DNA from: an uncultured virus (IMG/VR IMGVR_UViG_3300047457_000394)
Taxonomy: Duplodnaviria; Heunggongvirae; Uroviricota; Caudoviricetes
Length of the DNA stretch: 64,000 nt
Virus record (IMG/VR): IMGVR_UViG_3300047457_000394
Strand: one strand, 5' to 3'
Numbering within the stretch: position 1 is the stretch's first letter; each line of letters opens with the position of its first letter. The notes beneath the pieces are model-generated. The model saw only the letters and a program-made list of their open reading frames with translations, was not told the origin of the DNA and did not search any database. The translations under genes and the position numbers were made by a program. Shown here in pieces: positions 44 through 61,411 of the stretch.

Positions 44-58
44 TTTTAACGGTTAAAA
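44..58. promoter_or_regulatory. Palindrome TTTTAACGGTTAAAA, candidate operator
   Basis: Perfect 7-1-7 inverted repeat just upstream of an RBS; recurs at 2311, 3227, 3304, 4132 and 61397. Confidence 0.6.
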
Positions 59-1482: not shown

Positions 1483-1707
1483 TCATTCCTTTATGTAGTC
1501 TGAAACATTCCAATACTCATCGAGCGCAGGTTGCATACCCACACCCTCTGGCCCTTGCCATACCCACACGATGTCGCAGTCGGGGTACGCATTGAGGCAC
1601 TGCTCCTCTGCATGGTCGGTATCCTCGGCGTAACACTGGAAGCCAAACGGGGGGTCAAGGGGCGTCAGAATGCCCTCGATCCGATACAGCACGACATAGT
1701 TCTTCAT
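1483..1707 (-). CDS. Hypothetical acidic protein (FQCYAEDTDHAEEQC motif)
   Basis: AAGGAG RBS, ATGA overlap. Confidence 0.75.
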   Translation of the reverse strand: MKNYVVLYRIEGILTPLDPPFGFQCYAEDTDHAEEQCLNAYPDCDIVWVWQGPEGVGMQPALDEYWNVSDYIKE

Positions 1708-1877
1708 TTCACTTCTCCTTGGAACCTCGGGTCAGACTGTTTCGCCATCTCCACCAGCTTCTCGTGGAGCGCGGAGTACTCCTCAAAAATCTCATCGTCG
1801 TCATCGTTGCGGTCGGCATACGCCCATGCAAGTTCAGCCAAACTCCACAGTTCATGCGTGGTCAATGTGTTATTCAT
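1704..1877 (-). CDS. Hypothetical acidic protein, first ORF of the early transcript
   Basis: AAAGGAG RBS before ATG at 1877. Confidence 0.7.
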   Translation of the reverse strand: MNNTLTTHELWSLAELAWAYADRNDDDDEIFEEYSALHEKLVEMAKQSDPRFQGEVK

Positions 1878-1960
1878 CTCAGTTCTCCTTTCAGGCATGT
1901 AGCCTGGGTTTGGTTTGCGTTTAGTAAAGCAGTAGCCCCCTGGTAAGGGGGCGTTTCGTA

Positions 1961-2013
1961 AAGCTCATCAGTGCACGTTCCCGTGCAGACCCGGCATGTG
2001 CCGGGTTTCGCTT
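1961..2013 (-). ncRNA. Hammerhead ribozyme, type II
   Basis: Minus strand reads AAGC-GAAA-CCCGGC(ACAU)GCCGGG-UC-UGCACG(GGAA)CGUGCA-CUGAUGA-GCUU: intact CUGAUGA/GAAA core, three paired stems, GUC cleavage triplet (cut between 1988 and 1987). Confidence 0.9.
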
Positions 2014-2310
2014 ATTGGTTTGGTCTTGGTTAGCTTTTATTCATATGTCCTGATACCTGCACCCTCAGCACCCTGCTGGGTGCACTGAGTTTGGATAGTG
2101 GGCTTAGATATCGCCAGATCATATGGAGGGCTTGCACACATGTGCACAGCACATGCTCTTACCTCACGCTTACTCCCCGAAGGAACGTCACACGGGCAAA
2201 CCTCGCATTAACACGAGGCCGCACTGGTACAAGCAACTACCCGCAAAGAGCAGGTAGACAGACGTGTCCGGGGTTGCATATAGCAACAGCGGCTTGCCCG
2301 CACCCCCTAT

Positions 2311-2325
2311 TTTTAACCGTTAAAA
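2311..2325. promoter_or_regulatory. Palindrome TTTTAACCGTTAAAA, candidate operator
   Basis: Perfect copy about 55 nt downstream of the predicted early TSS. Confidence 0.6.
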
Positions 2326-2354
2326 TTAACGGGCTAGTTGGTGCGGTACAGCAG

Positions 2355-2368
2355 GTTGTGAAAGAACG
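2355..2368 (-). promoter_or_regulatory. boxA-like antitermination element (CGTTCTTTCACAAC)
   Basis: Resembles boxA (GCTCTTTAACA) and lies just after the predicted TSS. Confidence 0.4.
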
Positions 2369-2385
2369 AATTACTACGAACCCAT

Positions 2386-2414
2386 ATTGTACATGAGTCG
2401 CGTTACTTTGTCAA
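2386..2414 (-). promoter_or_regulatory. Strong sigma70-type early promoter
   Basis: TTGACA (2414-2409), 17 bp spacer, TACAAT (2391-2386). Confidence 0.85.
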
Positions 2415-2566
2415 GTGATTGTGTATGGTTTATTGATATAGATCAAAGTGGTTGGGTTTAGTCTGTTGAGTGAGTGTGTTACGTTATTCCGGCACCAGTG
2501 GAGGGGTGGTTTTAGGGGTCGGGAGGGATTTTAGACAGTAGTGATTACTTCAGTTGATGGGGGTAT

Positions 2567-3224
2567 GTATCGAGAAATACGATACACGGAACTGTGTACT
2601 TACGTTACGGGGAAACGTTACAGGCGCGTATCGCGTATCGTTGGGGGTCGCGTATCGGAACACTTTTTCACGATACGCAGGCGTAACGCGTAACGAGACG
2701 CATACTACAGAGAGGAAAAATGGCGCGTATCGTTGTATCGTTGATTTCAGCTTTTTAAGCGTCTGGCGCACCCCCCCCCCCCCTGAGCGCAAAAACGCAT
2801 CTCCATAAAAAGCAAAAAAATAACTTCCGGCAGTTTGCTTTTTTCAGGCTGGCGTTCAAAAAACTGCGTTACAACGATACATATATATAAAACTTCTTCT
2901 TCTTCTTATTATTATTAGGCGTTTGTTGTTACGCAACAACGCTTTTTCCCCTCTTTGGTGCAGTTTTCCATACACACTCACGTGACATAGTGTCTAACTG
3001 AACAAATTTCCTTGTAACGTTTTTACGTAACATTCCCCCTTTTTTGCGATACGCGTGTTACACGCTTGTAGCGTTTTTTACGATACACAAAATTGTGTTA
3101 TGTGGCTTGTAACGAAATTTACGATACATAAAAAAGAGTGTAGTGGTCGTGTATCGTTTTCGCGTATCGTTGTGACACAGTTACAAAAGCCCGTATCGTT
3201 TTCGCGTATCGTTGTGACACAGTT
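2567..3224. repeat. Iteron-like field of CGWTAC hexamers around an AT-rich core; candidate replication origin
   Basis: About 16 CGATAC/GTATCG and 7 CGTTAC/GTAACG counted by eye; AT-rich stretch 2881-2917; 32-bp direct repeat 3151-3182/3193-3224. Confidence 0.6.
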
Positions 3225-3244
3225 GATTTTAACCGTTAAAATCA
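3224..3244. promoter_or_regulatory. Extended 21-bp palindrome TGATTTTAACCGTTAAAATCA
   Basis: Perfect 10-1-10 inverted repeat containing the recurrent core. Confidence 0.6.
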
Positions 3245-3300
3245 GCTCCCATGCACCCCTGCGATGATAGTTTGTTTTTACCTGCGAAGCAGGTCTGTAT

Positions 3301-3321
3301 TTATTTTAACCGTTAAAATAA
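3301..3321. promoter_or_regulatory. Extended 21-bp palindrome TTATTTTAACCGTTAAAATAA
   Basis: Perfect 10-1-10 inverted repeat flanked by GAA-triloop hairpins at 3280-3294 and 3322-3336. Confidence 0.6.
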
Positions 3322-3443
3322 CAGCCTGAAAGGCTGCTGATTAGTTGTTTGCAGGACTCACCTGCCCTCCCGCGCTCACTCGCACGCACACTCGCTCACG
3401 TGCTGCCGCCTACTATCAACAAGCCCGCGAAAAACGCGGGCGT

Positions 3444-3468
3444 AAAAAAGCCCCGCCGAAGCGGGGCT
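3444..3468 (-). terminator. Rho-independent terminator
   Basis: AGCCCCGC-TTCG-GCGGGGCT followed by a T-run on the minus strand; second hairpin at 3423-3441. Confidence 0.85.
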
Positions 3469-4130: not shown

Positions 4131-4268
4131 ATTTTAACGGTTAGAATCAGACCCCACCGTACGGGGGGAACCCCTTTTGCCGGTTATGGGACCCACGCGC
4201 GCTTACGCTGAGTGCTAAATCCACGCAACCCACTTCACCGCTTCGCTTCACTTAGTTAACTTCGCTTG

Positions 4269-4451
4269 CCTGCGTTCCACCTGCGTTTTCCTTAACTACC
4301 TGCGTTCCACCTGCGTTCCACCTGCGTTCCACCTGCGTTCCACCTGCGTTCCACCTGCGTTTTCCTTAACTACCTGCGTTCCACCTGCGTTTTCCTTAAC
4401 TACCTGCGTTCCACCTGCGTTCGCTCCGCTTGCCTGCGTTCCACCTGCGTT
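4269..4451. repeat. Tandem array of 14 CCTGCGTT cores spaced 11 or 19 bp
   Basis: Cores at 4269, 4280, 4299, 4310, 4321, 4332, 4343, 4354, 4373, 4384, 4403, 4414, 4433, 4444. Confidence 0.9.
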
Positions 4452-4551
4452 AACTTCGCTTCGCTTGCCTACATACCCCCCTTTCACCAAAACAAGCCCT
4501 CAAAAAATTTTTGCTAAATTTCTCACAACTCTACTTCACTCAGTTAACCCC

Positions 4552-4606: not shown

Positions 4607-5188
4607 ATGGAAGTCCCAGAAATCGAGGTTGACGTACCGTTCGTCCCGTATGTGCCGACCTTTGAGGATTTGCAGGCACGGGTTACTGCTGCGCTTCGAA
4701 GTGTTGAAGATGTATATCCAGACGGGCTTCCCGTCTCTGACGACAATATTCAAACTGCGCGAGCCGTGTTAGCGGGTGCCGTATCCCCCACTCCTGAAGT
4801 GCTTGCCGAGCCCGGCGTAGTAGTACATCTAAAAGCGATCCTTGATGAATACGACAAGGAAGTTGTGCAGTCTGCACAGCAGATACGCGCTTACGTCACC
4901 AATAAACTGATTCTTGACTCAACTCACCCAGACCCACGTGTGCGGTTAAAGTGTTATGAGATGCTGGGTAAGATTAGCGATGTTGGGTTGTTCACAGATA
5001 AGACTGAAGTAACCATGCGGCATCGGCCTACTGCCGAGCTAGAGCAGTTGTTGCGTGAACGCCTTGCAAAAACACTGGAAGCCGTGCCTGAAGCATTACC
5101 TGCCCCTGAAGTGCCAAACGTACCCGTGCCAGAGCTATCGCAATTTTTAGGTGAAGTCAGTGAGCGGTCTGAGCAAAGCGGAAGTTGA
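4607..5188 (+). CDS. terS: Putative terminase small subunit
   Basis: Immediately upstream of and overlapping TerL; helical; motif RLKCYEMLGKISDVGLF. Confidence 0.6.
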   Translation: MEVPEIEVDVPFVPYVPTFEDLQARVTAALRSVEDVYPDGLPVSDDNIQTARAVLAGAVSPTPEVLAEPGVVVHLKAILDEYDKEVVQSAQQIRAYVTNKLILDSTHPDPRVRLKCYEMLGKISDVGLFTDKTEVTMRHRPTAELEQLLRERLAKTLEAVPEALPAPEVPNVPVPELSQFLGEVSERSEQSGS

Positions 5189-6728
5189 GCGCCTGCTGGC
5201 GGGGGTTAAGTCGATGTCCCAGCAGGACATGCTGGATACACTTGCGCTTTTGGAGGAACTTGAGCGTCGGAATCGGATAGCTCTGTGCCAGAACGACTTT
5301 TTAGCCTTCATAGCAGCAGTTGACTCCGCGTATAAGTTTGGAACCCACCTTAAAAAACTAGGTGGTCTGTTGATGGAGATCGAAAAAGGGCTAAAAGACA
5401 GGATCGCAGTATCCATGGCTCCGCGATTTGGCAAGTCTCAGATGATTTCTATCTATTACCCAGCGTGGTACCTGGGTAAACACCCCGATCACAAGATGAT
5501 TTTGGCCTCGCATACGTCTGATTTGGCCGTTGATATGGCCCGGAAAGTGCGAAATTTGATGCAATCTGACGTTTATATGGCCATTTTTCCTGGGGTTAAT
5601 ATCGCTGCAGACGCTAAAGCGGCTGGAAAGTGGAATACCACCAAGGGTGGCGAGGTGTTTGCCGTGGGTGTTGGGGGTGCGTTGGCTGGCCGTGGCGCAC
5701 ACTTGGCAATTGTCGATGACCCGCTTTCAGAACAAGACTTAAAGGCAGGCAATACAGCCTCTTTGGACACGGTTTATGAGTGGTTCCGTGCGGGTTTGCG
5801 TACACGTTTGATGCCGGGGGGCCGGATAGCGATATTACACACTCGCTGGCACCAACGGGACCTCATTGGGCGGCTAACTAAGGATGCCTTGCTAAATCCA
5901 GAGGCGGATCAGTACGAGATTTTTGAGTTTCCTGCCATTCTTACCAGTGCCAACCCTGCAGCAGACCCCACAGCCCCTGGGTATGATCCAGAAGCACCGC
6001 TAGAACTGCAGAAAAGTCTGTGGCCTGAGCAGTGGAGCTTGGAGAGTTTGCTGCGGACCAAGGCGTCCATGCCTGCGTGGCAGTGGAGTGCACAGTATCA
6101 GCAAGAGCCAACGTCGCAAGAGTCGGCGCTCATTAAGCGCGAGTACATCAAATGGTGGGAGAAAGAAGACCCGCCCGAGGTTGACTATATTGTGCAGTCT
6201 TGGGACACGGCGATGACGACTAAAGAGCGGTCTGACTATTCTGTGTGCCAGACGTGGGGGGTGTGGCAGAACGAAGATGGTGTGGATAATGTCATCTTGC
6301 TGAATCGCGTCAAGGGTAAGTACGAGTTTCCCGAACTAAAACAGCAGGCACTGCAGCAGTTTAAAGAGTGGCGTCCCGACACGCTCATCATAGAAACTAA
6401 AGCGTCAGGCCAGCCGCTCGTCGATGAGTTGCGGCGCTCAGGTATATATGTGCAGGAGTTCAGTCCGGGTAAAGGGCAGGATAAGATTGCGCGTGTCAAT
6501 GCTATCAGTGATATGTTTGCAAGCGGGCAGGTTTGGTTCCCTGAGACACATTGGGCGACTGAGGTTGTAGAGGAGTTGGTTGCGTTTCCTGCAGGGGAGC
6601 ACGACGATGATGTTGATGCCACATCACTGGCATTGGCACGGATACGCCGGGGTGGGCTGCTGCGGTTAAATTCTGACTATGAAGAGCCCGATGAGTTTTC
6701 TCGCCCACGACGCGGTGGGTATTACTGA
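5151..6728 (+). CDS. terL: Terminase large subunit
   Basis: Walker A MAPRFGKS, Walker B AIVDDP, TRWH, nuclease SWDTA and HDDDVDA. Confidence 0.95.
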   Translation: MKSVSGLSKAEVERLLAGVKSMSQQDMLDTLALLEELERRNRIALCQNDFLAFIAAVDSAYKFGTHLKKLGGLLMEIEKGLKDRIAVSMAPRFGKSQMISIYYPAWYLGKHPDHKMILASHTSDLAVDMARKVRNLMQSDVYMAIFPGVNIAADAKAAGKWNTTKGGEVFAVGVGGALAGRGAHLAIVDDPLSEQDLKAGNTASLDTVYEWFRAGLRTRLMPGGRIAILHTRWHQRDLIGRLTKDALLNPEADQYEIFEFPAILTSANPAADPTAPGYDPEAPLELQKSLWPEQWSLESLLRTKASMPAWQWSAQYQQEPTSQESALIKREYIKWWEKEDPPEVDYIVQSWDTAMTTKERSDYSVCQTWGVWQNEDGVDNVILLNRVKGKYEFPELKQQALQQFKEWRPDTLIIETKASGQPLVDELRRSGIYVQEFSPGKGQDKIARVNAISDMFASGQVWFPETHWATEVVEELVAFPAGEHDDDVDATSLALARIRRGGLLRLNSDYEEPDEFSRPRRGGYY

Positions 6729-11972: not shown

Positions 11973-12881
11973 ATGGCTATTTCACGTGCCCAACTACTGA
12001 AAGAACTCCTCCCAGGGCTTAATGCGCTGTTCGGTATGGAGTACAAGCGTTACGGCGAAGAGCACAAAGAGATTTTCGAAACCGAAACCTCTGAGCGTTC
12101 GTTCGAAGAGGAAACCAAACTGTCTGGCTTCTCCGCCGCTCCGGTGAAGAACGAGGGCAGCGCGATTGCCTACGATAACGCGCAAGAAGCTTGGACCGCT
12201 CGCTACAACCACGAAACCATTGCGATGGGTTTCTCGCTGACCGAAGAGGCCATCGAGGATAACCTGTACGACAGTCTGTCGTCCCGGTATACCAAAGCTC
12301 TGGCTCGTGCTATGGCGTACACCAAGCAAGTCAAAGCTGCGTCTATCCTGAACAACGGTTTTAGCTCCGCTGTGACCTACGGCGACGGCCAAGCTCTGTT
12401 CTCGACGGCGCATCCTCTGGTGTCTGGTGGTACCAACAGCAACCGTCCTGCGGTTGCCGCTGACCTGAATGAAACCTCCCTTGAGGCGGCTGTTATTCAG
12501 ATCGCTGGTTGGACCGATGAGCGTGGCTTGCTGATCGCTGCTAAGCCCCGCAAGCTGGTTGTGCCTCCGGCACTGATGTTCGTTGCAACCCGTCTGTTGG
12601 AGACTGAACTCCGCGTGGCGACCGCTGACAACGACATCAACGCGCTGAAGAACAACGGCTCCATCCCTGAAGGCTATACGGTTAATCACTATTTGACCGA
12701 TACCAATGCTTGGTTCCTCTTGACGGACGTTCCTAACGGGCTCAAGCACTTCGTGCGTACGCCTCTGCAGACTTCCATGGATGCGGACTTTGACACAGGT
12801 AACTCAAGGTACAAGAGCCGCGAAAGGTACAGCTTCGGCGTCTCTGATCCGTTGGGCGCATATGGCTCACCGGGCGCGTAA
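11973..12881 (+). CDS. Major capsid protein (Mu gpT-like family)
   Basis: MAISRAQLLKELLPGLNALFG N-terminus and DFDTGN..YK.RERYSFG C-terminus; AAGGAG RBS; followed by a terminator. Confidence 0.9.
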   Translation: MAISRAQLLKELLPGLNALFGMEYKRYGEEHKEIFETETSERSFEEETKLSGFSAAPVKNEGSAIAYDNAQEAWTARYNHETIAMGFSLTEEAIEDNLYDSLSSRYTKALARAMAYTKQVKAASILNNGFSSAVTYGDGQALFSTAHPLVSGGTNSNRPAVAADLNETSLEAAVIQIAGWTDERGLLIAAKPRKLVVPPALMFVATRLLETELRVATADNDINALKNNGSIPEGYTVNHYLTDTNAWFLLTDVPNGLKHFVRTPLQTSMDADFDTGNSRYKSRERYSFGVSDPLGAYGSPGA

Positions 12882-12890
12882 ACGCAAGTA

Positions 12891-12903
12891 AATCAAGCAC
12901 TTA
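12891..12903 (+). promoter_or_regulatory. IHF-consensus site AATCAAGCACTTA
   Basis: Exact match to WATCAANNNNTTR; part of inverted repeat 12891-12911. Confidence 0.4.
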
Positions 12904-12914
12904 GCTTGATTGAG

Positions 12915-12937
12915 AGGGGCCTTCGGGCCCCTTTTTT
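12915..12937 (+). terminator. Rho-independent terminator after the capsid gene
   Basis: AGGGGCC-TTCG-GGCCCCT followed by a T-run. Confidence 0.9.
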
Positions 12938-12955
12938 ACGTGGTTTAATCACTAC

Positions 12956-12984
12956 TTGACACCCTCTTCTCATATCCGTAAGAT
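12956..12984 (+). promoter_or_regulatory. sigma70-type promoter for the homing endonuclease
   Basis: TTGACA, 17 bp spacer, TAAGAT. Confidence 0.7.
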
Positions 12985-13016
12985 AGTGACATTCGATCAC
13001 TACAGGGGGCTCCAAA

Positions 13017-14468
13017 ATGCCACGGAACATGACAGCACGGCAGAATGCAATTGCCGCAGGATGTAAGACCTACGAGACTGGTATCCCTTGCAAGCAAGGG
13101 CACTTAGCCCCCAGAGCTACGTTAACTGGCACTTGCGTTGAGTGCACAAGGTTGGCGTCCCTTGCGTGGTTGGCTAAGAATCCGAATAAAGCGGCGGCGT
13201 ACACGTCGGCGTATAGAACTCGGAACCCGGAGCTTGTACGTGTTAAAGACCGGGAGGCAAAACAAGCGTTAAGAAAACACCAGCCAGAAAAAATGCGGGA
13301 GGCTAACAAACGTGCTTACGTTAAGCGCGTTACGGCTGAAGGTCGAGAAGTCCACCCTAACGGAGTGTTCCCGATTGCTGGGTTTTTATCACGCCTTGCG
13401 GATGTTCATGGGGGCGCTGTTCAGTACGTAAGTGGGTATACAAAAATATCTGCGAATGCCGAGTTCAAGTGCGTCACACATGGTGCCCACTTCATATCTA
13501 CACCCCATGCGGTCTTACGTGGAGCCAACCCATGTACACGGTGCAATCACACGAAGTCTTCGGGCGAAGAGGAAGTCGCACAGTTTTTAGAGACGTTTAC
13601 CACGGTCGTACGCCGCGACCGTACTTTGGTGAAGCCGAAAGAGCTAGACATCTACGTACCGGGTGCACAACTTGCGGTGGAATACTGCGGGGAGTTTTAT
13701 CATAGCCACGCAACTGCCGCTGATGAGCAGGCCAACAAAAGTAAACATGCGCAAAAGTACCAAGCTTGCCGCGATAAAGGTGTACACCTGATTACGCTCT
13801 ATGAGTCTGAGTGGAAAGCCCGTAAACCCGCTATCAAGCGGCTACTGCGTTACGCTGTGGGCGCAGGTCGTGGGAGTCTAATGGCGCGTAAGTGTGACGT
13901 ATCTCGGGTTAGTAGTGATGAAGCCCGTCAGTTTTACGAGCGGTACCACGTCCAAGGCGGCAACGGCGCTGGTGAGCACTATGGCCTCTATTGGAACGGT
14001 AAGCTTGTTGCGTGTATGCGGTTCACTTATGGGGCGAATGACCGAGGGCCGCATGCGTCACGGAGTTGGACGCTTTCACGATATGCCACACGTGTAACTG
14101 TGCAGGGCGGCGCGTCTCGCCTGTTTAAAGCGTTTTTGGCTGACTACCAACCAACAGAAGTCAAATCGTTTTCTGATAACCGGTTTTTTGATGGCAGCAT
14201 GTATGAAAAGCTTGGGTTTGAGCTGGAACGAGAACTTGCACCCGACTATGCTGTCTGGAGCCCTAAGCTTGGGTTGCTTCTTAAGACACAGTACCAACGG
14301 AAGTTCATCCAAAAGCGGCTAGAAGAGCACGGCCTCGCGTATATTTTTGACGCTGATACAGACCCCCGTACTGAAGCAGAGATGACCTACTTGATGGGGG
14401 CGCGGCGCATTTTTGACTGCGGTAAGAGGCGGTGGGTCTGGAGGCTTGACACCCCCCAAACAACCTGA
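13017..14468 (+). CDS. Free-standing Hef-like homing endonuclease
   Basis: N-terminal Cys/His motifs; KELDIY...AVEYCGEFYHS Vsr/DUF559-like core; C-terminal GGASRLFKAF...SFSDNR...RIFDCG domain. Confidence 0.8.
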   Translation: MPRNMTARQNAIAAGCKTYETGIPCKQGHLAPRATLTGTCVECTRLASLAWLAKNPNKAAAYTSAYRTRNPELVRVKDREAKQALRKHQPEKMREANKRAYVKRVTAEGREVHPNGVFPIAGFLSRLADVHGGAVQYVSGYTKISANAEFKCVTHGAHFISTPHAVLRGANPCTRCNHTKSSGEEEVAQFLETFTTVVRRDRTLVKPKELDIYVPGAQLAVEYCGEFYHSHATAADEQANKSKHAQKYQACRDKGVHLITLYESEWKARKPAIKRLLRYAVGAGRGSLMARKCDVSRVSSDEARQFYERYHVQGGNGAGEHYGLYWNGKLVACMRFTYGANDRGPHASRSWTLSRYATRVTVQGGASRLFKAFLADYQPTEVKSFSDNRFFDGSMYEKLGFELERELAPDYAVWSPKLGLLLKTQYQRKFIQKRLEEHGLAYIFDADTDPRTEAEMTYLMGARRIFDCGKRRWVWRLDTPQTT

Positions 14469-37302: not shown

Positions 37303-40300
37303 ATGCCTATCTATACCGTTGAAGGTCCGGACAAGCGTACGTACGACATTGAAGGCCCCGAGGGGGCTACGCTTGAGCAACTGGTTGCAGTCATACAGCA
37401 GCAAGGTCCTGCCTTTATTGCTCAGCAACCTAAACCTTCGACGCTTATGGGCGAACTGCGCCGTGGTGCGGAGCAGCTTATCTCTTCAACCCGCACGGGT
37501 CTTGGCGGCATGTTTGGTTCCCCCGAGGAAGCTGCAGCTGCAGGCATTGAACGTGGGCGTGAGATCAGTGAACGTGCTGGTGAGGGTCCGTCATTTGAGC
37601 GTTTACAACGCGTGTACCAAGAGCAAGGAGTGCTCCCTGCCGCAAAACAGGCGGTCTCTGATCTTCCTCAAGCGCTTGCTGGTCAAGGTGCCAATATTGC
37701 TGCGGTTCTTGCGGGCGGCAAACTGGGTGCTATGGCGGGCTCGGCAGTTGCGCCGGGGATAGGTACGATTGCGGGTGGTGTACTTGGTTCTGCCGCTGCT
37801 GTTGCGCCACAACTCTTTGGTACAAACATCGAGCGGCAGGTTGCTGAACAACGCGAGCGTGGCGAGACTCCCAAAGTTGATGTAGCTAACGCTGCGCTAG
37901 CCACGGCTGCACAGACGGGCCTTGAGATCGGTGGTACGGCTGCGGTCTTTGGCAAATCCGTTATAAAGGGTGTGCTTGGTATCGCAGATGACGCTGCGCT
38001 TGCTGCGTCTAAAAACAAAGACACACTCCTTAAGATGGCTCAGTCCACCATTAAGGGTGGTGTAGCGCGTGGCGCAGCTATCGAGATGCCGGTAGAGCTT
38101 AGCCAGAGTATTATCGAACGTGCTCAAGCGGGACTTGACCTCACGAGCCCCGACGCCATGAAAGAGTATGGCGAAGCGCTTTACCTAGCAGGCTTAGTAG
38201 GTGGTCCGCTGGGCGGTGCTGGACGGGTTATGGACCGTAGCTCGGCGCGACGTGCGCTAGCTGCTGAACAACCTCCAACTCCTGAAGCTGCACCAGCACT
38301 ACCTCCAGAAGCGCCAACCGAACCCGGTGCGCAGGGTGAGTTGTTCCCGACTGCTGCACCTGCCGTTGAACCTGCTACCCCTACACGAGAAGAGGACACC
38401 GAGCGCCTGCGTTCCTTGCGTGAAGAATTTGATCGCTTGCAGCGTGAAAATGAGCGCCTACGTGCTGCACCTGAAGCGGACCAAGCCACTGCACGGGCCG
38501 AAGCGGAAAAGCTAGCCCCACAGCTTGAATCGTTGCAAGCCGAGATTAAAGAAGTCAGCAAACGTCTGCCGCCTGAAGATATCAAGCGCCCTGGCCCCGT
38601 GCCGGTCACACCCGTTGAAGGGCAGTATGAGTTGGCGTTTGATGACCGCATCCGTACGCAAGACTTGCCAAACTACGGTATTCCCGCGATTGGTGGTACG
38701 CCTGCACAGATTGGTGTACGTGGATGGATGCAGGATAACGTCGTTGGTAAGACGGTCCCGCAGATTGAGCGGTTGGTTAAACAGCAGCCTGAGCTTGTCC
38801 GTGGTGAGGGGTTACGCGCTCGTGCGTTGCGTGAGATGATCACTCCCCAACCTGCGGCCTTCAAGGAGCCCGTTCGTGAACCCAGACCAGAAACACCTAG
38901 TCCAGTTGCCGAGCAGCCAGAGCTTGACTTTGGAGGAGCTGAGCCAAGCGTGGCAGGTCCTGTCGAGCCTCAACGACGGCCTCGAAGAGTACGAGCTACC
39001 GAGCAACCTGCAGCATCTGAGCGACTGGGATTGGAACCTGCTGGGGCTGTTGCTGAACCGGGAGATGTGGTTGCGCAAGAACAACCCGCTGCACTGATCG
39101 AACCTACACCAACCCCGGTCGCAGAAGCTTGGGAAGAGTTTAAACCAGACGGTGCCCCGGCGTTTGATGCGCTATCGCCGTCCATGCAGGCAGATTGGCA
39201 AGCTCGATACACTGAGCGCCCTGAACGTCTTACGATGCAGGACGCAGATGAAGTGTTAGCTGCTGCGCCTGTTGAAGCTCCTGCACGGTTTGTGGAACCG
39301 ACAGACATTGAAAAATATGAAAAGCCAAATGCCGTTTTAGATTTTGGGGGTTATCGATTTTCATTTGTTAGCTTAGGTGGTGTCCCCGAAGTATTAGTGA
39401 AGTATAAGGACGGTAGAGACGGTAAGGTTGTTCGCAATGACGGTGATAAACGAAATGGTGTCTTATATGAAAACTCACCTGAGTGGGCGCAGGTTGAGGT
39501 CCCCCCTACGTTGCAGGCCGCACTTACTCAATACTCAAAATCCAGAAACGATGCCGAATTACAAGCCGCCGAAAAAGCAGTAGAAGACGCTGTAAACGAT
39601 ATAAACAAACAAACAAAGGCAGAGCAGACCAAACCCCGCAAAGAGCGTCGCGCTAAGAAGCAGGCAAAACCCACTCCGGCACCGGCGGCTGAATCAACCA
39701 AAGAGCAAACTCTTGATGAAACAAAAGCCATCGAAACAACGGTCAAACAAGCTATTGAAGATAAGCTAAATGACTTTTTGGTTGGGGATCAAGTTCGTTT
39801 TGGCAATACGCCGGGTGTGGTAATCGGGCTTGAAGGTGACTACGTTCGTTTTCGCCCCGACTCTGCTCGTTCACCCAAAGCATATCAGCGCGTACCAAAG
39901 ACATCGCTTACGATGGTTGCACGGCCCGATACAACCAGTGAGGTCTCGTATTCAAAAGAACAGGACAACAAGTTTGGCGAGGAAGCTGGCCAACTAAACG
40001 CCAACAAAGGGAACTTAATCCAGTTGCTTGGTTCAAATATGTACGCAGCTAACCTTGCAGACGTTGCTGTTAAAGAGCTTCTGCAGAATGCGTTTGATGC
40101 GGTCAAAGGTGCGGTGTCTAGTCTTAAAGCGCCTGCGCTTTATAAAACTGGCTCCATAGAAATTAGCATCGACTCTGATACGCGGACCATCTCCATCAAA
40201 GATAATGCTCGTGGTATGACGCCCGAGATTGTTCGAGAGGCTTTCTTTACTATTGCAGGATCAGAGAAGTCTGACTTGCCACCCAGCGAGCGTAGCGGTG

Positions 40301-43300
40301 GATTGGGGTTAGCTAAGATGGGTTTCATGTTGGGCTCTGAACGAATCCAACTTGACACCGTTCGAGATGGTGTGCGCGTAACTGTAGACGCTACTGCACA
40401 AGACATTGCTAATGATAACTTTAAAATTGTTAAGTCACCGGCTCCTAAAACGGATCACGGAACTACGGTTACGGTTAAGATTCCCGAAAATTACATTGAG
40501 CAAACTACTGGAGACCCTAAACCTATTTGGTTTCCGTATAGCTTAAGAAGCATTGGACCTTTAAACAAACCGTTGATCGGCCCTGTTAGTGTAGATTTAG
40601 TTTTTGACGGTGAAAAACAAACCCTTCCGGTGGGGGAAAACTTTCCCGCAGATAAGTATCAGTCGTTCAAAGCTAACTTTGATTGGGGGTCTGCGGACAT
40701 TTACTTTGGCATAGAACGTAAAACCAAGTCGTATGCCACCAATCATCAAGTTTTATCCAGTGGTGTTTATCAGTTTGATGACAGGTTTCAACTGAACAAC
40801 GAAAAGATTCCGTACGACATCATTGTTAATGTGAAGCCTAATGTCGGCGCTCGTCACCCCGATTACCCGTTTGAAAATAGTCGTGAGCGGTTCAAAGGGC
40901 GGTTGAAAAACGACATTGATTCATTAACGGCGTATCTTGGGCAGATTGCCCGTGGATATGAAGCGGCTGGGCTACAAGAGTCATTCAAGGGAATTGTCTC
41001 AATGCCTCGCGTAGAAGCTGGTGCCGACATTGCAGGAATGGCTGATAAGCTCAAGAAGAGTTTTGGCACTCAGGGCGCACAAGCTCCGGCAGAACTCAAG
41101 CCCTTACCCAAAGAAGTCACCATCACACCAACAGATGTGCGAGACACCAGAACTCAACAGGTTTTGGTGGACACCCAAAAAGCTGCAGAGAAAGAAAAAG
41201 AATCTACTTTCAAAGGCGAGAAGGTAAAGACTGCGACTGACTTCATGATTGACATGAAGCAAGACCCGAAGCTACCGATCTTTCATAACAATACTAACGT
41301 AGATTTTTTGGAGCTTGGCAGAGAGTACGGTGAACCGGAGAAGTTCTTTGCGGAACTCGGGACGCTAATGGTTGAGATGAAAGAGGATCTTGCCAAGAGT
41401 GGCATCTACGGCTACGAGAAGCTGTCACCTGACAACCTGTTCTTTGCTGGTGTCTCGATTGATAAGGACTACGGCGGCGTACACATCAAGGTTCCGTACA
41501 AGGCCGTCTTGGTCAATCCGTTCTATGACTGGGGTGCAAGAACCCTGTTTGGCGTTCGCCAAAACCTGCTGAACACCATGATTCATGAGATCGCGCATAC
41601 AGGTTCAATGGATCACGGCGTCGCTCACAACGGCCAGATGATAAAGGTTGAGCAGTATCTTGCGGACGAGGGGCTGGTCGATTATTACCGGGACGCAATA
41701 CTTGATTTGTTACGTCGCCACGAGTCAACATTCACTGCAATGAGGGATGCGTATGGACGATCTACAACGAAGAACACTGCAAAGTCTCTTGAGGATGTCC
41801 AGAAAGACACCGCCGCAGCATCAGCTAGAGGAGATCGAGGCCGGAGTGAGGACGAGATTAGGGCTGTATCAGCAGGAGAAGGACGCAGAAGGGGCAAGGG
41901 TGTACGAGCAACTGCTGCCAGTCGTGCTGAAGGCGAAGTCAGCCAAGGACCTAGAGGCGTTAGTGCAGTAACCCCCACCGAACAAGACATGCAAGCTGGG
42001 TTCTCGCCGCAACCCGGTGGAACTGCGCGGCAGATACAAGACATCACGATCGACCGCATCACCAAGTTCCGGCGCATGATGACGGATGCGGGTGCCACGG
42101 TCTTCAACGAGATTGCTAAGAACTTCAATAATGCTGTGACCACGGCGCTCAAGGACCCGCGTGTCGAGGCAGTCTATCGACAGGCCGAAGCGTCAGACCA
42201 ACTGGTACCGGCTGTGTATCGACTGGGTGTCGTGCGTCGTGACAAAGGCACGAACCTGTGGAAAGCGGCTAAAGCTTCCGGTGTCAAGTCTGTCCAAGAC
42301 ATTACCGAAGAGCTCACGCAGTGGGGCGAAACCCAGGGCCTTAAGTTCGAAGCTTCGTGGAACCGCGCTGATGAGCTTTTACGGGCTGCACGAGAGCATG
42401 AGTTTCGTCGGCTCAACAAGACTCAAGAGAAGGGCCGTGACTTCCCCGTCAGCATGTCGGATGCCGACATCGACCGCCTATATGCAGAGTACCAGCAAGA
42501 CAAAAAACTGCAGGCGATCAAAGATGATATGGACAAGCTGCGGTTTGACTTCATCGACCAGCTGGTTGCCGTGGGCCGCATCACCAAAGAGATGGGTGCA
42601 GATTGGAAGGCAGCCACCGCCTACGTGCCGTTTGATCGTGTCGAGGAGATGGACTCCAAGTTCCGACAGAAGCGCAGCGTCGGTCGCGGTATCGCACAGC
42701 TTGGCCAACTGCCTGAACTCGTGAATAAGCCGGGTACCAACCGCCCACCCAAGAATGTCTTGGAAAACTACATCGGGCTCATTGGGTGGATGACGCAAGA
42801 GGTTGTGCGCCAGGACGCTACCCTGCGTACGCTTCGCGCTTTGGAAGACATCGGGCAAGCTCAGTTCCGCACAACCCCACCGCCTGAGTCAGATCGCAAA
42901 GTTGCTACCTACGTTAACGGGGAAGAGCGATATTTTGTCGTTGCTTCGCCTTACCACGTCGCTGCATTCCGAAGTGATATCACACCGCTCCCAGGTATGT
43001 TTACGCTCATGGGGCAGTTCTCACGAGCCCTGCGGACGGCGATCACAGCAATCCCGACGTTTACTGCAACACAGCTTCCACAAGATATTCAACGTGCCAT
43101 TATGGCCTCGGGTGTGCGCGACCCCGTTGCGCTTACAGCTAAGACACTTGGCAACTTCAAAGACTTCGCTAAAGCTGCTGCACTTGGAAAACTTTCTGAC
43201 GTTGCACCTGAACTGTCTGAGTTCGGTGTCGTGGGTGGTGTGGACTTTCACAAGTCCAATCCTGCGGAATCGTTCCTGCAAGATATCGGTAAGCGCAACC

Positions 43301-44580
43301 GTACGTTGCTCAAGTCGTCGAAGTTTGGTGAGCTATTGAACCGCTTGAATGGCGTAGCACTGGCCTCTGATATTGCGGTTCGTAAAGCCATCTACGATCA
43401 AACGATTGAAGAGACGCAAGGTGATCGGCAACTTGCGCTTGAGCGAGCACGAGAGATCATCAACTTCCGTAGGTTCGGTGCCGGTGACCCGCTCGGTATC
43501 CTGCATGTAGCAACGCAGACGATCCCCTTCTTCAACGCATACCTGCAAGGTACAGATGTTCTTTACCGTTCACTCACTGGTAAGGAAGCGCCCTCGGGGT
43601 TGAAGCGCAACGCGGCGCTCAAGCTGTATTGGACAAACGTCGGCTACCTGATGGCTGCGTCTACGCTCTATGCCATGCTGATGGCGGGCGATGAAGAGTA
43701 CGAAAACATGGACCTGCGTGAACGTGACCGCACGTGGGTTATTGGTGGTGGGCTCGGTATCCCGGTCCCTGCTGAGATTGGCATACTCTTCAAGTCAATC
43801 CCTGAGCGTGTGCTGGAGGTCTACCGCAAGCACGGTACACCTGAAGAAGCTGTCGCTACTGAAGCACTGCTGGGTTGGTTCCGTGCAGCGTATGAAGAAT
43901 ATCTCGGTCGGCAAGTGCCGATCCCCGCAGCGGCTAAACCCTTGCTTGAGAATTTCACTAACTACTCGTTTCTTACTGGGCGTCCGTTGGAAGGCATATT
44001 CCAGCAGGGTCAGCTACCAAGTGAGCGTGTGACCACCCGTACTTCAGAGCTAGCGAAGCAAGTCGCACAGTTCACTGCCGCCACGACTGGCGTAGAAGTC
44101 TCTCCTATCGATATCGATAACGTCGTACGAGGATACCTCGGTACTACGGGTGCTTTGGTGCTAGCTGCTGCTGACCAAGCTATCAATCCTAACCGCGCGG
44201 ATCGACCACTGCACCAGATCGTTGGGCTGTCTGCGTTTGCTTATGACCCCGTGGGTACGCGGCGCACGTCGGAGTTCTATGACCTGCGTGAGAAAGTTGT
44301 GCAGACACACAACTCGCTTAACCAGATGCTGAAGACGAACCCGGAACGGGCTTATGCGTTTGCTGAGAAAAACGCGCCGCTCTTGATGGCCTACAAGATG
44401 GTCAACAGCACACTGGAAGAGCTTGAGAAAACTCGGGCGATGAAGCGCTATCTGGATACCGACATGGCAGCACAGTCGATGACAGGCGAAGAGCGCTTGA
44501 AGATGAAGCAAGAGATCCAGCAGTACGAACAGAACCTCGTTGAGTGGGTGCGGGAAGCGAAGAACTCTCTGGGTATCTAA
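37303..44580 (+). CDS. Giant polyvalent protein (2425 aa): GHKL ATPase, HEXXH zincin, LPD38-like C-terminus
   Basis: ELLQNAFDA / DNARGM / GGLGL / GTTV GHKL motifs; MIHEIAH; IPFFNAYLQG and N.SF.TGRP C-terminal motifs. Confidence 0.8.
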   Translation: MPIYTVEGPDKRTYDIEGPEGATLEQLVAVIQQQGPAFIAQQPKPSTLMGELRRGAEQLISSTRTGLGGMFGSPEEAAAAGIERGREISERAGEGPSFERLQRVYQEQGVLPAAKQAVSDLPQALAGQGANIAAVLAGGKLGAMAGSAVAPGIGTIAGGVLGSAAAVAPQLFGTNIERQVAEQRERGETPKVDVANAALATAAQTGLEIGGTAAVFGKSVIKGVLGIADDAALAASKNKDTLLKMAQSTIKGGVARGAAIEMPVELSQSIIERAQAGLDLTSPDAMKEYGEALYLAGLVGGPLGGAGRVMDRSSARRALAAEQPPTPEAAPALPPEAPTEPGAQGELFPTAAPAVEPATPTREEDTERLRSLREEFDRLQRENERLRAAPEADQATARAEAEKLAPQLESLQAEIKEVSKRLPPEDIKRPGPVPVTPVEGQYELAFDDRIRTQDLPNYGIPAIGGTPAQIGVRGWMQDNVVGKTVPQIERLVKQQPELVRGEGLRARALREMITPQPAAFKEPVREPRPETPSPVAEQPELDFGGAEPSVAGPVEPQRRPRRVRATEQPAASERLGLEPAGAVAEPGDVVAQEQPAALIEPTPTPVAEAWEEFKPDGAPAFDALSPSMQADWQARYTERPERLTMQDADEVLAAAPVEAPARFVEPTDIEKYEKPNAVLDFGGYRFSFVSLGGVPEVLVKYKDGRDGKVVRNDGDKRNGVLYENSPEWAQVEVPPTLQAALTQYSKSRNDAELQAAEKAVEDAVNDINKQTKAEQTKPRKERRAKKQAKPTPAPAAESTKEQTLDETKAIETTVKQAIEDKLNDFLVGDQVRFGNTPGVVIGLEGDYVRFRPDSARSPKAYQRVPKTSLTMVARPDTTSEVSYSKEQDNKFGEEAGQLNANKGNLIQLLGSNMYAANLADVAVKELLQNAFDAVKGAVSSLKAPALYKTGSIEISIDSDTRTISIKDNARGMTPEIVREAFFTIAGSEKSDLPPSERSGGLGLAKMGFMLGSERIQLDTVRDGVRVTVDATAQDIANDNFKIVKSPAPKTDHGTTVTVKIPENYIEQTTGDPKPIWFPYSLRSIGPLNKPLIGPVSVDLVFDGEKQTLPVGENFPADKYQSFKANFDWGSADIYFGIERKTKSYATNHQVLSSGVYQFDDRFQLNNEKIPYDIIVNVKPNVGARHPDYPFENSRERFKGRLKNDIDSLTAYLGQIARGYEAAGLQESFKGIVSMPRVEAGADIAGMADKLKKSFGTQGAQAPAELKPLPKEVTITPTDVRDTRTQQVLVDTQKAAEKEKESTFKGEKVKTATDFMIDMKQDPKLPIFHNNTNVDFLELGREYGEPEKFFAELGTLMVEMKEDLAKSGIYGYEKLSPDNLFFAGVSIDKDYGGVHIKVPYKAVLVNPFYDWGARTLFGVRQNLLNTMIHEIAHTGSMDHGVAHNGQMIKVEQYLADEGLVDYYRDAILDLLRRHESTFTAMRDAYGRSTTKNTAKSLEDVQKDTAAASARGDRGRSEDEIRAVSAGEGRRRGKGVRATAASRAEGEVSQGPRGVSAVTPTEQDMQAGFSPQPGGTARQIQDITIDRITKFRRMMTDAGATVFNEIAKNFNNAVTTALKDPRVEAVYRQAEASDQLVPAVYRLGVVRRDKGTNLWKAAKASGVKSVQDITEELTQWGETQGLKFEASWNRADELLRAAREHEFRRLNKTQEKGRDFPVSMSDADIDRLYAEYQQDKKLQAIKDDMDKLRFDFIDQLVAVGRITKEMGADWKAATAYVPFDRVEEMDSKFRQKRSVGRGIAQLGQLPELVNKPGTNRPPKNVLENYIGLIGWMTQEVVRQDATLRTLRALEDIGQAQFRTTPPPESDRKVATYVNGEERYFVVASPYHVAAFRSDITPLPGMFTLMGQFSRALRTAITAIPTFTATQLPQDIQRAIMASGVRDPVALTAKTLGNFKDFAKAAALGKLSDVAPELSEFGVVGGVDFHKSNPAESFLQDIGKRNRTLLKSSKFGELLNRLNGVALASDIAVRKAIYDQTIEETQGDRQLALERAREIINFRRFGAGDPLGILHVATQTIPFFNAYLQGTDVLYRSLTGKEAPSGLKRNAALKLYWTNVGYLMAASTLYAMLMAGDEEYENMDLRERDRTWVIGGGLGIPVPAEIGILFKSIPERVLEVYRKHGTPEEAVATEALLGWFRAAYEEYLGRQVPIPAAAKPLLENFTNYSFLTGRPLEGIFQQGQLPSERVTTRTSELAKQVAQFTAATTGVEVSPIDIDNVVRGYLGTTGALVLAAADQAINPNRADRPLHQIVGLSAFAYDPVGTRRTSEFYDLREKVVQTHNSLNQMLKTNPERAYAFAEKNAPLLMAYKMVNSTLEELEKTRAMKRYLDTDMAAQSMTGEERLKMKQEIQQYEQNLVEWVREAKNSLGI
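38876..39097 (+). CDS. Candidate overprinted small protein (+1 frame) inside the giant gene
   Basis: AAGGAG RBS 7 nt before GTG; amphipathic helical sequence. Confidence 0.45.
   Translation: MNPDQKHLVQLPSSQSLTLEELSQAWQVLSSLNDGLEEYELPSNLQHLSDWDWNLLGLLLNREMWLRKNNPLH
41753..41971 (+). CDS. Candidate overprinted small protein (+1 frame) inside the giant gene
   Basis: GAGGGA 5 nt before ATG; starts right after the HEXXH domain. Confidence 0.4.
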   Translation: MDDLQRRTLQSLLRMSRKTPPQHQLEEIEAGVRTRLGLYQQEKDAEGARVYEQLLPVVLKAKSAKDLEALVQ

Positions 44581-52013: not shown

Positions 52014-52964
52014 TTAGCAATCCCCGTATGATGCACCCCACCCTACCTCACATGCAAGGGGGAGCGTTTTAGCCCACGCCGGTCGCCACGACATACATTC
52101 CTCAACATATTTCACGGCTTCTTCAACCTGCGCCTCGGGTGCGACACAGGCAACCGCATCATGGACAGTCAACACCACCTTGTACCGCTTGGCGATGCGC
52201 AGCATCTGCTCAGCCACGATGCACCGCGCGATCCCCTGGCAAAAATTCTCCACACTTTTGCCTCCGTATATGTCGATCACCTGCCCACGTGAGTCGTACA
52301 CCCACCGCAAGGTGCCGTCATCCCGGCGCTCCTGCCGAAGCCCTGGGTACTGAATGTGTGTACCGTTCGGAAGCGTAAGCCCCACGCCCGGCATAGCCTT
52401 CACGATATTCTGCCGGTCCACAACCATCGGCATATGCGCCGCCAGCATCGAGAGCGCAACGTCTGCAGTTTTCCATAGCTCAGGTATGCAGTAGTACGTC
52501 CGTCGATAGGTATCTACTATGCGCTTGGCTTCCGCATCGTCCACCACAACGCCCGCACCCGTCTTCAGGAAGAGCTGTAGCTTCTTGTGCCCGACTCCAT
52601 AACCACAACCTAACACAGTTGACTTTCCAATGAACCGTTGTTCTTTTGTTATCTGGTCAGGCGCAACCCCGTAGATATGCGAAGCCATGATGCGATACAC
52701 GTCTTGCTTTTGTTCAAACGCATCAACGAGGTCTTGCTGCCCCGCTAACCACGCCAGCGTCCGCGCTTCGATCTGTGAGGAGTCTGAATCAATCACCACG
52801 TAACCGGGCGGCGCTTTGATAGCTTTCTTGATCTTGCCTGCGTTAGCTGTGCGTGATGGAAGGTTTTGAAGGTTAACCGAATCAGAGTTGTGTACCAATC
52901 TACCGTTAGCTACAAACCTATGCCTCGGCCCGCAGTTTTTGATGTCGTATACCGCAACCAACAT
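52014..52964 (-). CDS. polA: DNA polymerase A, C-terminal half with 26-aa split-intein IntC
   Basis: AAAGGAG RBS; MLVAVYDI...RFVANGRLVHN then SDSVNLQNLP; motifs DSSQIEAR, K...LG..YG, TVHDA. Confidence 0.9.
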   Translation of the reverse strand: MLVAVYDIKNCGPRHRFVANGRLVHNSDSVNLQNLPSRTANAGKIKKAIKAPPGYVVIDSDSSQIEARTLAWLAGQQDLVDAFEQKQDVYRIMASHIYGVAPDQITKEQRFIGKSTVLGCGYGVGHKKLQLFLKTGAGVVVDDAEAKRIVDTYRRTYYCIPELWKTADVALSMLAAHMPMVVDRQNIVKAMPGVGLTLPNGTHIQYPGLRQERRDDGTLRWVYDSRGQVIDIYGGKSVENFCQGIARCIVAEQMLRIAKRYKVVLTVHDAVACVAPEAQVEEAVKYVEECMSWRPAWAKTLPLACEVGWGASYGDC

Positions 52965-55458: not shown

Positions 55459-55634
55459 GGCGCGTCTCCGGCTTCGCGGTGTAGTTCATCAAAGGTGGGT
55501 TTGCCGTCGTGTAGGGGTGGGTTTGTGAGTGGTCGTAAAGACTCTAGGTTTGTTGGGAACGGCCACGTAGGCGGTGTGTCGGTAGGTCCAGAGCTTTTTG
55601 CCTTTGACGATTCGATAGCCTGCTGTTCCTTCAT
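55452..55634 (-). CDS. Small hypothetical protein (TWPFPT motif)
   Basis: AAGGAG RBS; overlaps the upstream HTH ORF in another frame. Confidence 0.5.
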   Translation of the reverse strand: MKEQQAIESSKAKSSGPTDTPPTWPFPTNLESLRPLTNPPLHDGKPTFDELHREAGDAPW

Positions 55635-55761
55635 GCTCCATCTCCTTGAGGATCTTTCGTATCGTAGTGGTTGAAACAAGAAACCGAATTGCTAGCTGGT
55701 CTACATGAAGAGGTGTCTTAATACTCTTGATGTATCGTTCAAGCTTATCCCTTGTTCGCAT
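55489..55761 (-). CDS. Putative winged-HTH protein
   Basis: [30 protein letters not shown]. Confidence 0.55.
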
Positions 55762-55945
55762 AGTTAACCTCCGGCACCCAGTGTTCCAGTGCTTTTGCCG
55801 GGTATATCTGTACAGACCCTTTCTCCGTCCAGCTCTCAACTGCATACCCTTCTGGGGTTAGTGTCGTGGAGTAGGTTCCTACGATAACCCCGTGCCACTG
55901 AGATCCAGATACTTTGCGAACTGTGTCGCCTCGTTTGAATTTCAT
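55745..55945 (-). CDS. dfrB: Type II (R67/DfrB-family) dihydrofolate reductase homologue
   Basis: [24 protein letters not shown]....[10 protein letters not shown], collinear with R67; AAGGAG RBS. Confidence 0.9.
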
Positions 55946-61396: not shown

Positions 61397-61411
61397 TTTT
61401 AACGGTTAAAA
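61397..61411. promoter_or_regulatory. Palindrome TTTTAACGGTTAAAA, candidate operator
   Basis: Fills the gap between the upstream stop codon and the RBS. Confidence 0.6.

What the first reader, a model, noticed from the sequence alone, without database searches (positions are those of the whole stretch)
1988..2379. Promoter-to-ribozyme ~390-nt structured RNA: candidate new phage ncRNA
Seen: there is no sizeable sense ORF between the predicted TSS (~2379) and the hammerhead. A 10-bp long-range stem (2300-2291 with 2202-2193) encloses hairpins such as GUUGC/GCAAC and CUACCUGC/GCGGGUAG. A second domain is closed by CAUAUG/CAUAUG and GAUAUC/GGUAUC around UGCACCC...GGGUGCA. G-U pairs favour RNA-level structure on this strand. 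Inferred: an abundant immediate-early ncRNA whose 3' end is set by the ribozyme, possibly acting as a decoy, anti-defence RNA or antiterminator.
Basis: inference. Interest (0 to 1): 0.7.

Follow-up and report, generated by a model that had tools for sequence, protein, structure and literature searches.

The report
Phage early leader ending in hammerhead
A lake phage begins its early genes with about 390 untranslated, folded bases that carry a likely "keep transcribing" signal for the host polymerase and are cut from the message by a self-cleaving hammerhead RNA; whether the cut-off piece has a job of its own is untested.

Summary
The anatomy is real: a sigma-70-type promoter (11/12 match), a leader with no conserved ORF that folds better than shuffles (z about -3), and a type II hammerhead with an intact core (Rfam 32.8 bits, under the 37 cut-off). 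Only one independent full-length relative and one short variant were found. Their changes fit minus-strand pairing (P 0.07-0.09), so covariation could not be tested, and abundance is not shown. Best reading (0.45): an antitermination leader that loads host Nus factors for a ~15-kb early operon, with the ribozyme freeing the message. A trans-acting ncRNA (0.25) and a passive leader (0.25) remain open. No Rfam family or distant homologue matches the folded part. The scan has noted this promoter-leader-hammerhead and boxA-leader layout before on other phages.

The parts
2386..2414 (-). sigma-70-type early promoter, 17-nt spacer; start predicted at about 2381-2377
   Evidence: 11 of 12 consensus bases; hexamers kept or improved in relative L002 while the spacer differs. 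The start site is inferred.
2357..2368 (-). boxA-like 12-mer CGUUCUUUCACA, about +14 to +25
   Evidence: 9 of 12 identical to the E. coli consensus printed in PMC13753749; unpaired probability about 0.8 in prefixes up to 150 nt; second-best of about 64,000 minus-strand positions under a matrix from 9 relatives' sites; unchanged in L002.
2311..2325 (.). copy of a genome-wide 15-bp palindrome, likely a DNA operator; as RNA it forms part of the 2332-2317 hairpin
   Evidence: 7 copies in the window at up to 2 mismatches, 0.12 expected; one abuts the -35 box of the 4130 promoter; 3 copies in record G002.
2298..2346 (-).
   Evidence: probability 0.98 in the window, 0.2 in L002.
2190..2303 (-). domain 1: hairpins 2292-2268, 2257-2237 (also terminator-like, weak U tract) and 2218-2201; possible closing stem 2303-2291/2202-2190
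   Evidence: z -4.6 for 2193-2300; hairpin probabilities 0.99 and 0.81, closing stem 0.0; terminator-like hit; variant hairpin in run X1.
2166..2188 (-). hairpin with cUUCGg loop
   Evidence: sequence; only the minus strand has such tetraloops; an alternative pairing with 2273-2267 has probability 0.48.
2134..2158 (-). optional 25-nt hairpin, absent from the relative
2042..2125 (-). domain 2: CAUAUG/CAUAUG and GAUAUC/GGUAUC closing helices, inner hairpin 2083-2068
   Evidence: z -2.6 on minus, -1.1 on plus; a U-G to C-G change in L002.
2014..2041 (-). A/C-rich unpaired linker with an 11-nt length difference between the two variants
1958..2013 (-). type II hammerhead ribozyme; predicted cut between 1988 and 1987
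   Evidence: RF02276, 32.8 bits, E 4e-4, gathering 37; stems III and I at 0.98 and 0.96 in the full transcript, stem II at 0.01; core kept in L002.
1931..1964 (-). optional 34-nt hairpin between 7-nt direct repeats, absent from the relative
1885..1906 (-). 5-bp hairpin followed by the Shine-Dalgarno sequence of the first gene
   Evidence: hairpin kept in L002.
1704..1877 (-). first early ORF, 57 aa, acidic, no PHROG or Pfam match; replaced by an unrelated ORF in the relative

Best explanation
This is the cis-acting leader of the phage's main early operon. Host sigma-70 polymerase starts at about 2381 (promoter shown as sequence; use inferred). The first bases made include an unpaired boxA-like site that recruits host NusB-S10 and the rest of an rrn-type antitermination complex (inferred), which carries the polymerase through 500 untranslated bases and a roughly 15-kb operon that has no second strong promoter. 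A phage or host protein binding the palindrome at +55 can repress or block this (inferred). The folded middle hides the untranslated RNA from Rho and nucleases and may help the complex (inferred, weakest step). The hammerhead then cuts at 1988/1987 (core and two of three stems shown; activity inferred), leaving the leader with the complex and giving the message a fixed 5'-OH end with hairpins in front of the first ribosome-binding site, whichever gene sits first.
For: boxA-like site at +14, unpaired, second-best of about 64,000 minus-strand positions; 7 of 639 minus-strand tiles hold such a site. In relatives such sites lie within 100 nt behind 6 of 91 promoters, 0 of 90 upstream, 40 of 5204 background tiles, Fisher p 1.2e-4. 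Two other family members, L229 and L234, have ORF-free early leaders of 523 and at least 309 nt that open with a near-perfect or perfect boxA. No promoter above 9/12 and no strong terminator on the minus strand between 2386 and the terminator at 51016-50989, across the genome junction. No RNA polymerase match among the large ORFs scanned. Leader and hammerhead are kept while the first gene is swapped in L002. boxA alone suffices for the rrn complex (PMC10250234). A hammerhead marks the 5' end of the early polycistronic transcript of HF1/HF2 (PMC3088659).
Against: [quoted passage not shown] Most relatives' promoters (85 of 91) have no such site nearby; at one mismatch the count is 2 of 91 (p 0.027), and whole-locus counts are 12 sense to 6 antisense. 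Several relatives' sites sit directly before a ribosome-binding site and could be translation enhancers. Related loci are not independent. boxA does not explain why 350 further bases are folded and kept. 74 of 91 promoters in relatives reach a gene within 150 nt, so a long leader is not needed by the family. Hammerhead stem II is not predicted to form and the usual loop I pseudoknot is at best 3 pairs.
Confidence: 0.45

Rival explanations
1. The released ~390-nt piece is a stable RNA with a job in trans, most likely binding a host protein (for example soaking up Nus factors or a defence protein) in the first minutes of infection. The ribozyme gives it a 3' end without stopping transcription into the early genes.
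For: Leader differs from L002 at 8 of 329 aligned sites against 57 of 981 in the non-coding DNA upstream (p 0.012). None of 7 substitutions breaks a pair in three candidate folds, about 1.9 expected (P 0.07-0.09). Both long indels in or beside the leader are whole hairpins. The X1 variant swaps the 2287-2273 hairpin for another with one double change (read by eye). The one piece of run X1 that fits this phage over more than 45 nt lies in the leader. Small ribozymes leave a 2',3'-cyclic phosphate (PMC6765202), which I recall as hindering 3' decay.
Against: No distant homologue in any search. Terminase and portal genes are as little diverged (1-3%), so low divergence may reflect recent exchange. 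No single global fold. The RNA contig runs 20 nt upstream of the start and has depth 2.8. No long complementarity to other phage RNA beyond the palindrome.
Confidence: 0.25
2. A passive leader: the hammerhead is the ordinary phage intergenic kind that fixes the 5' end of the message (a natural RiboJ), the hairpins are accumulated clutter, and the cut-off piece is degraded.
For: Type II hammerheads sit between a stop codon and the next ribosome-binding site in the viral loci whose flanks I could read (that output was cut), and 5 of 78 related loci have intergenic type I hammerheads. Hairpins come and go between two close variants. Folding z is similar on both strands; a terminator region of the same genome folds better (z -5.9). 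RiboJ removes leaders and leaves a hairpin before the RBS (PMC6206723).
Against: Does not explain the boxA-like site at +14, the lower divergence than neighbouring non-coding DNA, or the pair-keeping changes. The leader shows no trace of a decayed gene (tblastn against 368 loci, best unrelated E 0.03).
Confidence: 0.25
3. The inverted repeats act as DNA (replication origin or packaging signal next to the repeat-rich 2415-3440 stretch), not as RNA.
For: Folding is nearly strand-symmetric; the palindrome is a DNA-type site; the adjacent stretch is rich in short repeats.
Against: A cUUCGg loop on minus only; two substitutions keep G-U/G-C pairs on minus and would be A-C mismatches on plus; the stretch lies between a promoter and a ribozyme.
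Confidence: 0.05

Closest known systems
Hammerhead before the first early ORF of haloviruses HF1/HF2 (HHphage; Perreault et al. 2011, PMC3088659, passages read)
   Same: A hammerhead sits in front of the first gene of an early polycistronic transcript and would define its 5' end.
   Different: There it lies 13 nt from the start codon and has a variant core; here 110 nt, a standard core, type II, and a 390-nt folded leader with a boxA-like site upstream.
rrn leader antitermination signal (boxB-boxA-boxC; NusB-S10, NusA, NusG, SuhB, S4) and lambda nut sites (PMC10250234, PMC2724277, PMC13753749; passages)
   Same: A boxA-like 12-mer just behind a strong promoter, ahead of long untranslated RNA.
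   Different: 3 of 12 bases differ from the E. coli consensus; no boxB hairpin upstream, no good boxC, no N-like gene identified; the leader is removed by a ribozyme rather than by RNase III.
HK022 putL/putR RNAs (PMC9378689, passages)
   Same: Folded RNA behind a phage early promoter; put stays active without a tether to the transcript, so a ribozyme cut would be compatible.
   Different: put is about 70 nt with two stem-loops; this leader is about 390 nt. No put sequence was available to compare.
RiboJ synthetic insulator (PMC6206723, passages)
   Same: Hammerhead, then hairpin, then ribosome-binding site; the leader is cut away.
   Different: Engineered, and its discarded leader has no function.

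Membership tests
Type II hammerhead ribozyme (RF02276) | Core CUGAUGA, GAAA and GUC with stems I and III closed by loops | tested here: met
   All 66 model positions matched, E 4e-4; stems III and I at 0.98 and 0.96; kept in L002.
Type II hammerhead ribozyme (RF02276) | Rfam gathering score of 37 bits | tested here: not met
   32.8 bits; no match at gathering in the whole window.
Type II hammerhead ribozyme (RF02276) | Open stem II and loop I-3' tail pseudoknot (found in a majority, not all; PMC3088659) | tested here: inconclusive
   Stem II can make 4 pairs but has probability 0.01; by eye the pseudoknot is at most 3 pairs (alignment).
Type II hammerhead ribozyme (RF02276) | Self-cleavage | not testable with these tools
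   Only contigs were available, which show no ends.
rrn-type boxA antitermination leader | boxA close behind the promoter and single-stranded | tested here: inconclusive
   Position +14 and unpaired 0.8, but 9 of 12 identity to the E. coli consensus; enrichment in relatives.
rrn-type boxA antitermination leader | boxB hairpin upstream and boxC 18-19 nt downstream (not required for antitermination) | tested here: not met
   No stable hairpin in the first 13 nt and no boxC-like word at that spacing, by reading.
rrn-type boxA antitermination leader | Match to the host's own rrn boxA; NusB-S10 binding; read-through | not testable with these tools
   Host unknown; no genome held.
HK022 put RNA | About 70-nt two-stem RNA with put sequence, binding the beta' zinc-binding domain | not tested
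   Features from PMC9378689; no put sequence was fetched. Rfam gave no match for the leader, but I did not check that Rfam holds a put model.
Any Rfam ncRNA family (release 15), tRNA or tmRNA | Covariance-model match to 2010-2400 | tested here: not met
   One chance-level hit, mir-51 on plus, 18.6 bits against 70; ARAGORN 0 genes.
Conserved structured ncRNA (new family) | Covariation across diverged homologues | tested here: inconclusive
   Two full-length variants only; 0 of 7 substitutions break a pair, P 0.07-0.09; one double change in the X1 loose end.
Protein-coding or small-ORF leader | ORF kept in the relative | tested here: not met
   Plus-strand 101-aa frame 2091-2396 is broken in L005; the 40-aa minus frame loses its start in L002.

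The most novel reading that the evidence does not exclude
The leader is a lineage-specific, ribozyme-matured phage RNA that first loads host Nus factors through its 5' boxA and, once cut free, persists as a folded protein-binding RNA, either riding the polymerase like put or draining NusB-S10 from host rRNA transcription; unrelated leaders in L229 and L234 would be independent versions of the same device.
Probability: 0.2. Interest if true: 0.75.

Novelty: new variant of a known kind. Interest (0 to 1): 0.42.

Why it matters
The role of phage hammerheads is still largely open (PMC6765202). This locus offers a compact test: a promoter, a boxA-like site, an operator and a hammerhead in 450 bases at the head of an early operon, in a phage whose terminase is closest to HTVC023P-type pelagiphages (45% identity). 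If the best reading holds, a lytic phage with no N-like gene found borrows the host rRNA antitermination machinery and uses a ribozyme to separate the loading site from the message. If the released piece also acts in trans it would be a new phage RNA. As it stands the folded part is known from two variants only, so the claim is modest.

Tried and rejected
Homologue searches that gave nothing beyond two near-identical lineages: blastn against phages and plasmids; an exact 25-mer in metagenome contigs, 2 hits, both 100% identical over the leader; gapped patterns in viral contigs, 111 hits of which only the two known lineages align, 4 hits of which 2 are an unrelated phage, 9 hits with no new leader; GTDB pattern 0 hits and small-terminase search 1 locus too short upstream. 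Covariance models R1 and R2, each built from two sequences, found only the window among 96 sources, nothing in 79 of the 122 hammerhead loci and nothing in 50 whole records, 7 of them at least 90% complete, with no positive control in those calls. L229 and L234 leaders are not detectably homologous to ours (P 0.06 and 0.31) and match no ribozyme family. A second boxA-like word at 2252-2244 was rejected: it lies in a hairpin and scores -0.2. A group I intron-like topology was considered and dropped because the conserved core words I recall are absent. A second hammerhead using the 1964-1931 hairpin was rejected by eye (stem III and stem I registers fail). Runs X2-X4 laid nothing, and uncovered parts of X1 prove nothing. 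Supplements of Fremin et al. 2023 (PMC10690425): no hit for contig ids or short words in files 3-6, but files 1-2 and mmc1-3 could not be read and may hold the alignments, so presence in that catalogue is not excluded. My first fold comparison had two mis-set helix ends and was redone; only its Fisher test is used.

Full report
Setting. The window is a near-complete, circularly permuted phage genome of about 64 kb: large terminase at 5151-6728, portal, capsid, DNA polymerase, helicase and primase; a relative's contig runs from the window's end into its start (L361). The closest annotated terminases are those of Pelagibacter phages HTVC023P and HTVC027P and phage DSL-LC04 at about 45% identity. 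No host or whole genome is held. No RNA polymerase family matched the ORFs I scanned (24 by PHROGs; 19 and 14 by Pfam, partly overlapping, out of 117 frames of 100 aa or more).

Observation. On the minus strand a sigma-70-type promoter lies at 2414-2386 (11 of 12). A type II hammerhead lies at 2013-1958 (RF02276, 32.8 bits, E 4e-4, below the gathering score of 37), with the cut predicted after 1988. In the full transcript stems III and I form at 0.98 and 0.96 and stem II at 0.01. The first ORF with a good Shine-Dalgarno site starts at 1877. Between promoter and ribozyme there is no conserved ORF on either strand. The 392 nt fold at z -3.5 or -2.9; 3 of 70 background windows score below -3.0. 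Three global folds built on the same local hairpins lie at -112.2, -107.5 and -113.7 kcal/mol against an unconstrained -126.7. Local hairpins are therefore credible; the overall architecture is not known. Without the hammerhead the two strands fold equally well (z -2.7 and -2.8).

Relatives. Searches found identical copies (L001, L032, L033) and one independent variant (L002/L005). The variant differs at 8 of 329 aligned leader sites and lacks a 25-nt hairpin, 11 nt of linker and a 34-nt hairpin behind the ribozyme. Leaving out one change at an indel edge, none of 7 substitutions breaks a pair in any of the three folds, where about 1.9 would by chance (P 0.07-0.09). Two fall in helices and keep pairing only on the minus strand. 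The leader is less diverged than the non-coding DNA upstream (57 of 981; p 0.012) and the flanking early ORFs (12-13%), but no less than terminase and portal (1-3%). The first gene behind the hammerhead is different in the variant. In RNA-library run X1 a 151-nt contig at depth 2.8 covers 2289-2401 with one difference and continues in a loose end. Read by eye, and taking the printed 30 letters as adjacent to 2289, it replaces GUUGC/GCAAC by CUGC/GCAG: one double change, one lost pair, the outer CCG/CGG kept. It reaches 20 nt upstream of the predicted start, so it is not proof of transcription. All searches for distant homologues were empty (see Tried and rejected).

First, a 15-bp palindrome at 2311-2325 recurs 7 times in the window at up to 2 mismatches (0.12 expected), in both orientations, once abutting the -35 box of the 4130 promoter and twice just before ribosome-binding sites; record G002 has 3 copies. 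I read it as a DNA operator (inference). Second, a boxA-like 12-mer at 2368-2357. I came to it by listing promoters in 80 loci of related phages: 74 of 91 reach a gene within 150 nt, but L229 and L234 have ORF-free leaders of 523 and at least 309 nt that open with boxA-like words, exact in L234. The pattern was first typed from recall; the E. coli consensus UGCUCUUUAACA is printed in PMC13753749 and the rrn and lambda forms in PMC2724277. At up to 2 mismatches such words lie within 100 nt behind 6 of 91 promoters of relatives, 0 of 90 upstream and in 40 of 5204 tiles (p 1.2e-4); at 1 mismatch 2 of 91 against 13 of 5204 (p 0.027). Our site is unpaired (about 0.8 in prefixes to 150 nt), ranks second of about 64,000 minus-strand positions under a matrix made from 9 relatives' sites, and such sites occur in 7 of 639 minus-strand tiles. 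Against this: the test is after the fact, the loci are kin, the matrix sites were picked by closeness to the consensus, whole-locus counts are 12 sense to 6 antisense, and several sites in relatives sit just before a ribosome-binding site.

Mechanism. The minus-strand operon runs from 2381 across the junction to the first strong terminator at 51016-50989, about 15 kb, with no promoter above 9 of 12 in between. Untranslated RNA invites Rho termination, which the boxA-loaded complex blocks (PMC13753749), and boxA alone suffices to load it (PMC10250234). The simplest account of all parts is a cis leader: boxA loads host Nus factors, the operator controls the promoter, and the hammerhead frees the message with a 5'-OH end (PMC6765202) and hairpins before the first ribosome-binding site, as RiboJ does (PMC6206723). 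The protective effect of a 5'-OH end against RNase E is recalled, not checked here. Shown: the sequences, positions, conservation in one variant and enrichment in kin. Inferred: start site, cleavage, Nus loading, repression and any role of the folded middle. I give this 0.45, a trans-acting released RNA 0.25, a passive leader 0.25 and a DNA-level element 0.05.

Comparison with what is known. The hammerhead works like, and by core and topology is, a type II hammerhead, though under the Rfam cut-off. A hammerhead before the first early gene is published for HF1/HF2 (PMC3088659), and phage intergenic hammerheads are common. The leader works like an rrn or nut leader but fails boxB and boxC and is a weak boxA match, so I do not file it as a member. 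It matches no Rfam family. Paper searches for a hammerhead-released phage early RNA or a phage boxA leader listed none that describes this combination; the library lacks most subscription journals, and the alignment files of PMC10690425 could not be read. What I saw of each paper: passages only for PMC3088659, PMC6765202, PMC10250234, PMC9378689, PMC6206723, PMC2724277 and PMC13753749; supplement list and searches for PMC10690425; search listing only for PMC9599517. Earlier notes of this scan report the same promoter-leader-hammerhead and boxA-leader layouts on other phages; none matches this sequence. They are unchecked leads, not support.

Verdict. A real, folded, ribozyme-bounded early leader; a new variant of known parts. 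Interest 0.42.

Noticed in passing
window 44-58, 2311-2325, 3227-3241, 3304-3318, 4132-4146, 40602-40616, 61397-61411: Genome-wide 15-bp palindrome, operator-like, shared with record G002; the HTH-like protein 55489-55845 (Pfam HTH_DeoR E 3e-4, just under cut-off) is a candidate binder.
   Followed up: partly
window 2415-3440: About 1 kb without a gene, with 7 copies of CGTATCG against 0.06 per kb elsewhere; many related contigs end 0.6-1.4 kb upstream of the small terminase. Possibly the genome end or origin.
   Followed up: no
window 2134-2158 and 1994-2003: The optional 25-nt hairpin is complementary over 10 bases to hammerhead stem III (predicted pairing 0.0) and holds both orientations of the stem III loop, which is inverted in L002; suggests template switching.
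   Followed up: no
window 1931-1964: The optional 34-nt hairpin resembles GAAAC plus stem III of another type II hammerhead; perhaps a remnant.
   Followed up: partly
window 4250-4460: Tandem short repeats upstream of the small terminase gene, variable in length in the relative.
   Followed up: no
window 52014-54862 and 11973-14468: The DNA polymerase gene is split around an HNH endonuclease ORF (52918-53718), and the major capsid gene is followed by a homing-endonuclease ORF (13017-14468): possible intron or intein insertions; Rfam found no intron at gathering.
   Followed up: no
L229 1689-2212 and L234 1851-2490: Long ORF-free early leaders opening with boxA in two related phages, no Rfam match and no hammerhead found; candidates for their own study.
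   Followed up: partly
L172 958 and 1204, L173 1223, L197 306, L200 450, L201 450: Type I hammerheads overlapping stop codons between the first early genes of related phages, not reported by Rfam at gathering.
   Followed up: partly
window 37303-44580: 2425-aa protein with an LPD38 domain and a GHKL-type ATPase domain, a large polyvalent protein at the end of the late operon.
   Followed up: no
window 3423-3468: Double-hairpin intrinsic terminator closing the 3487-4122 gene; the most stable folding window sampled (z -5.9).
   Followed up: no
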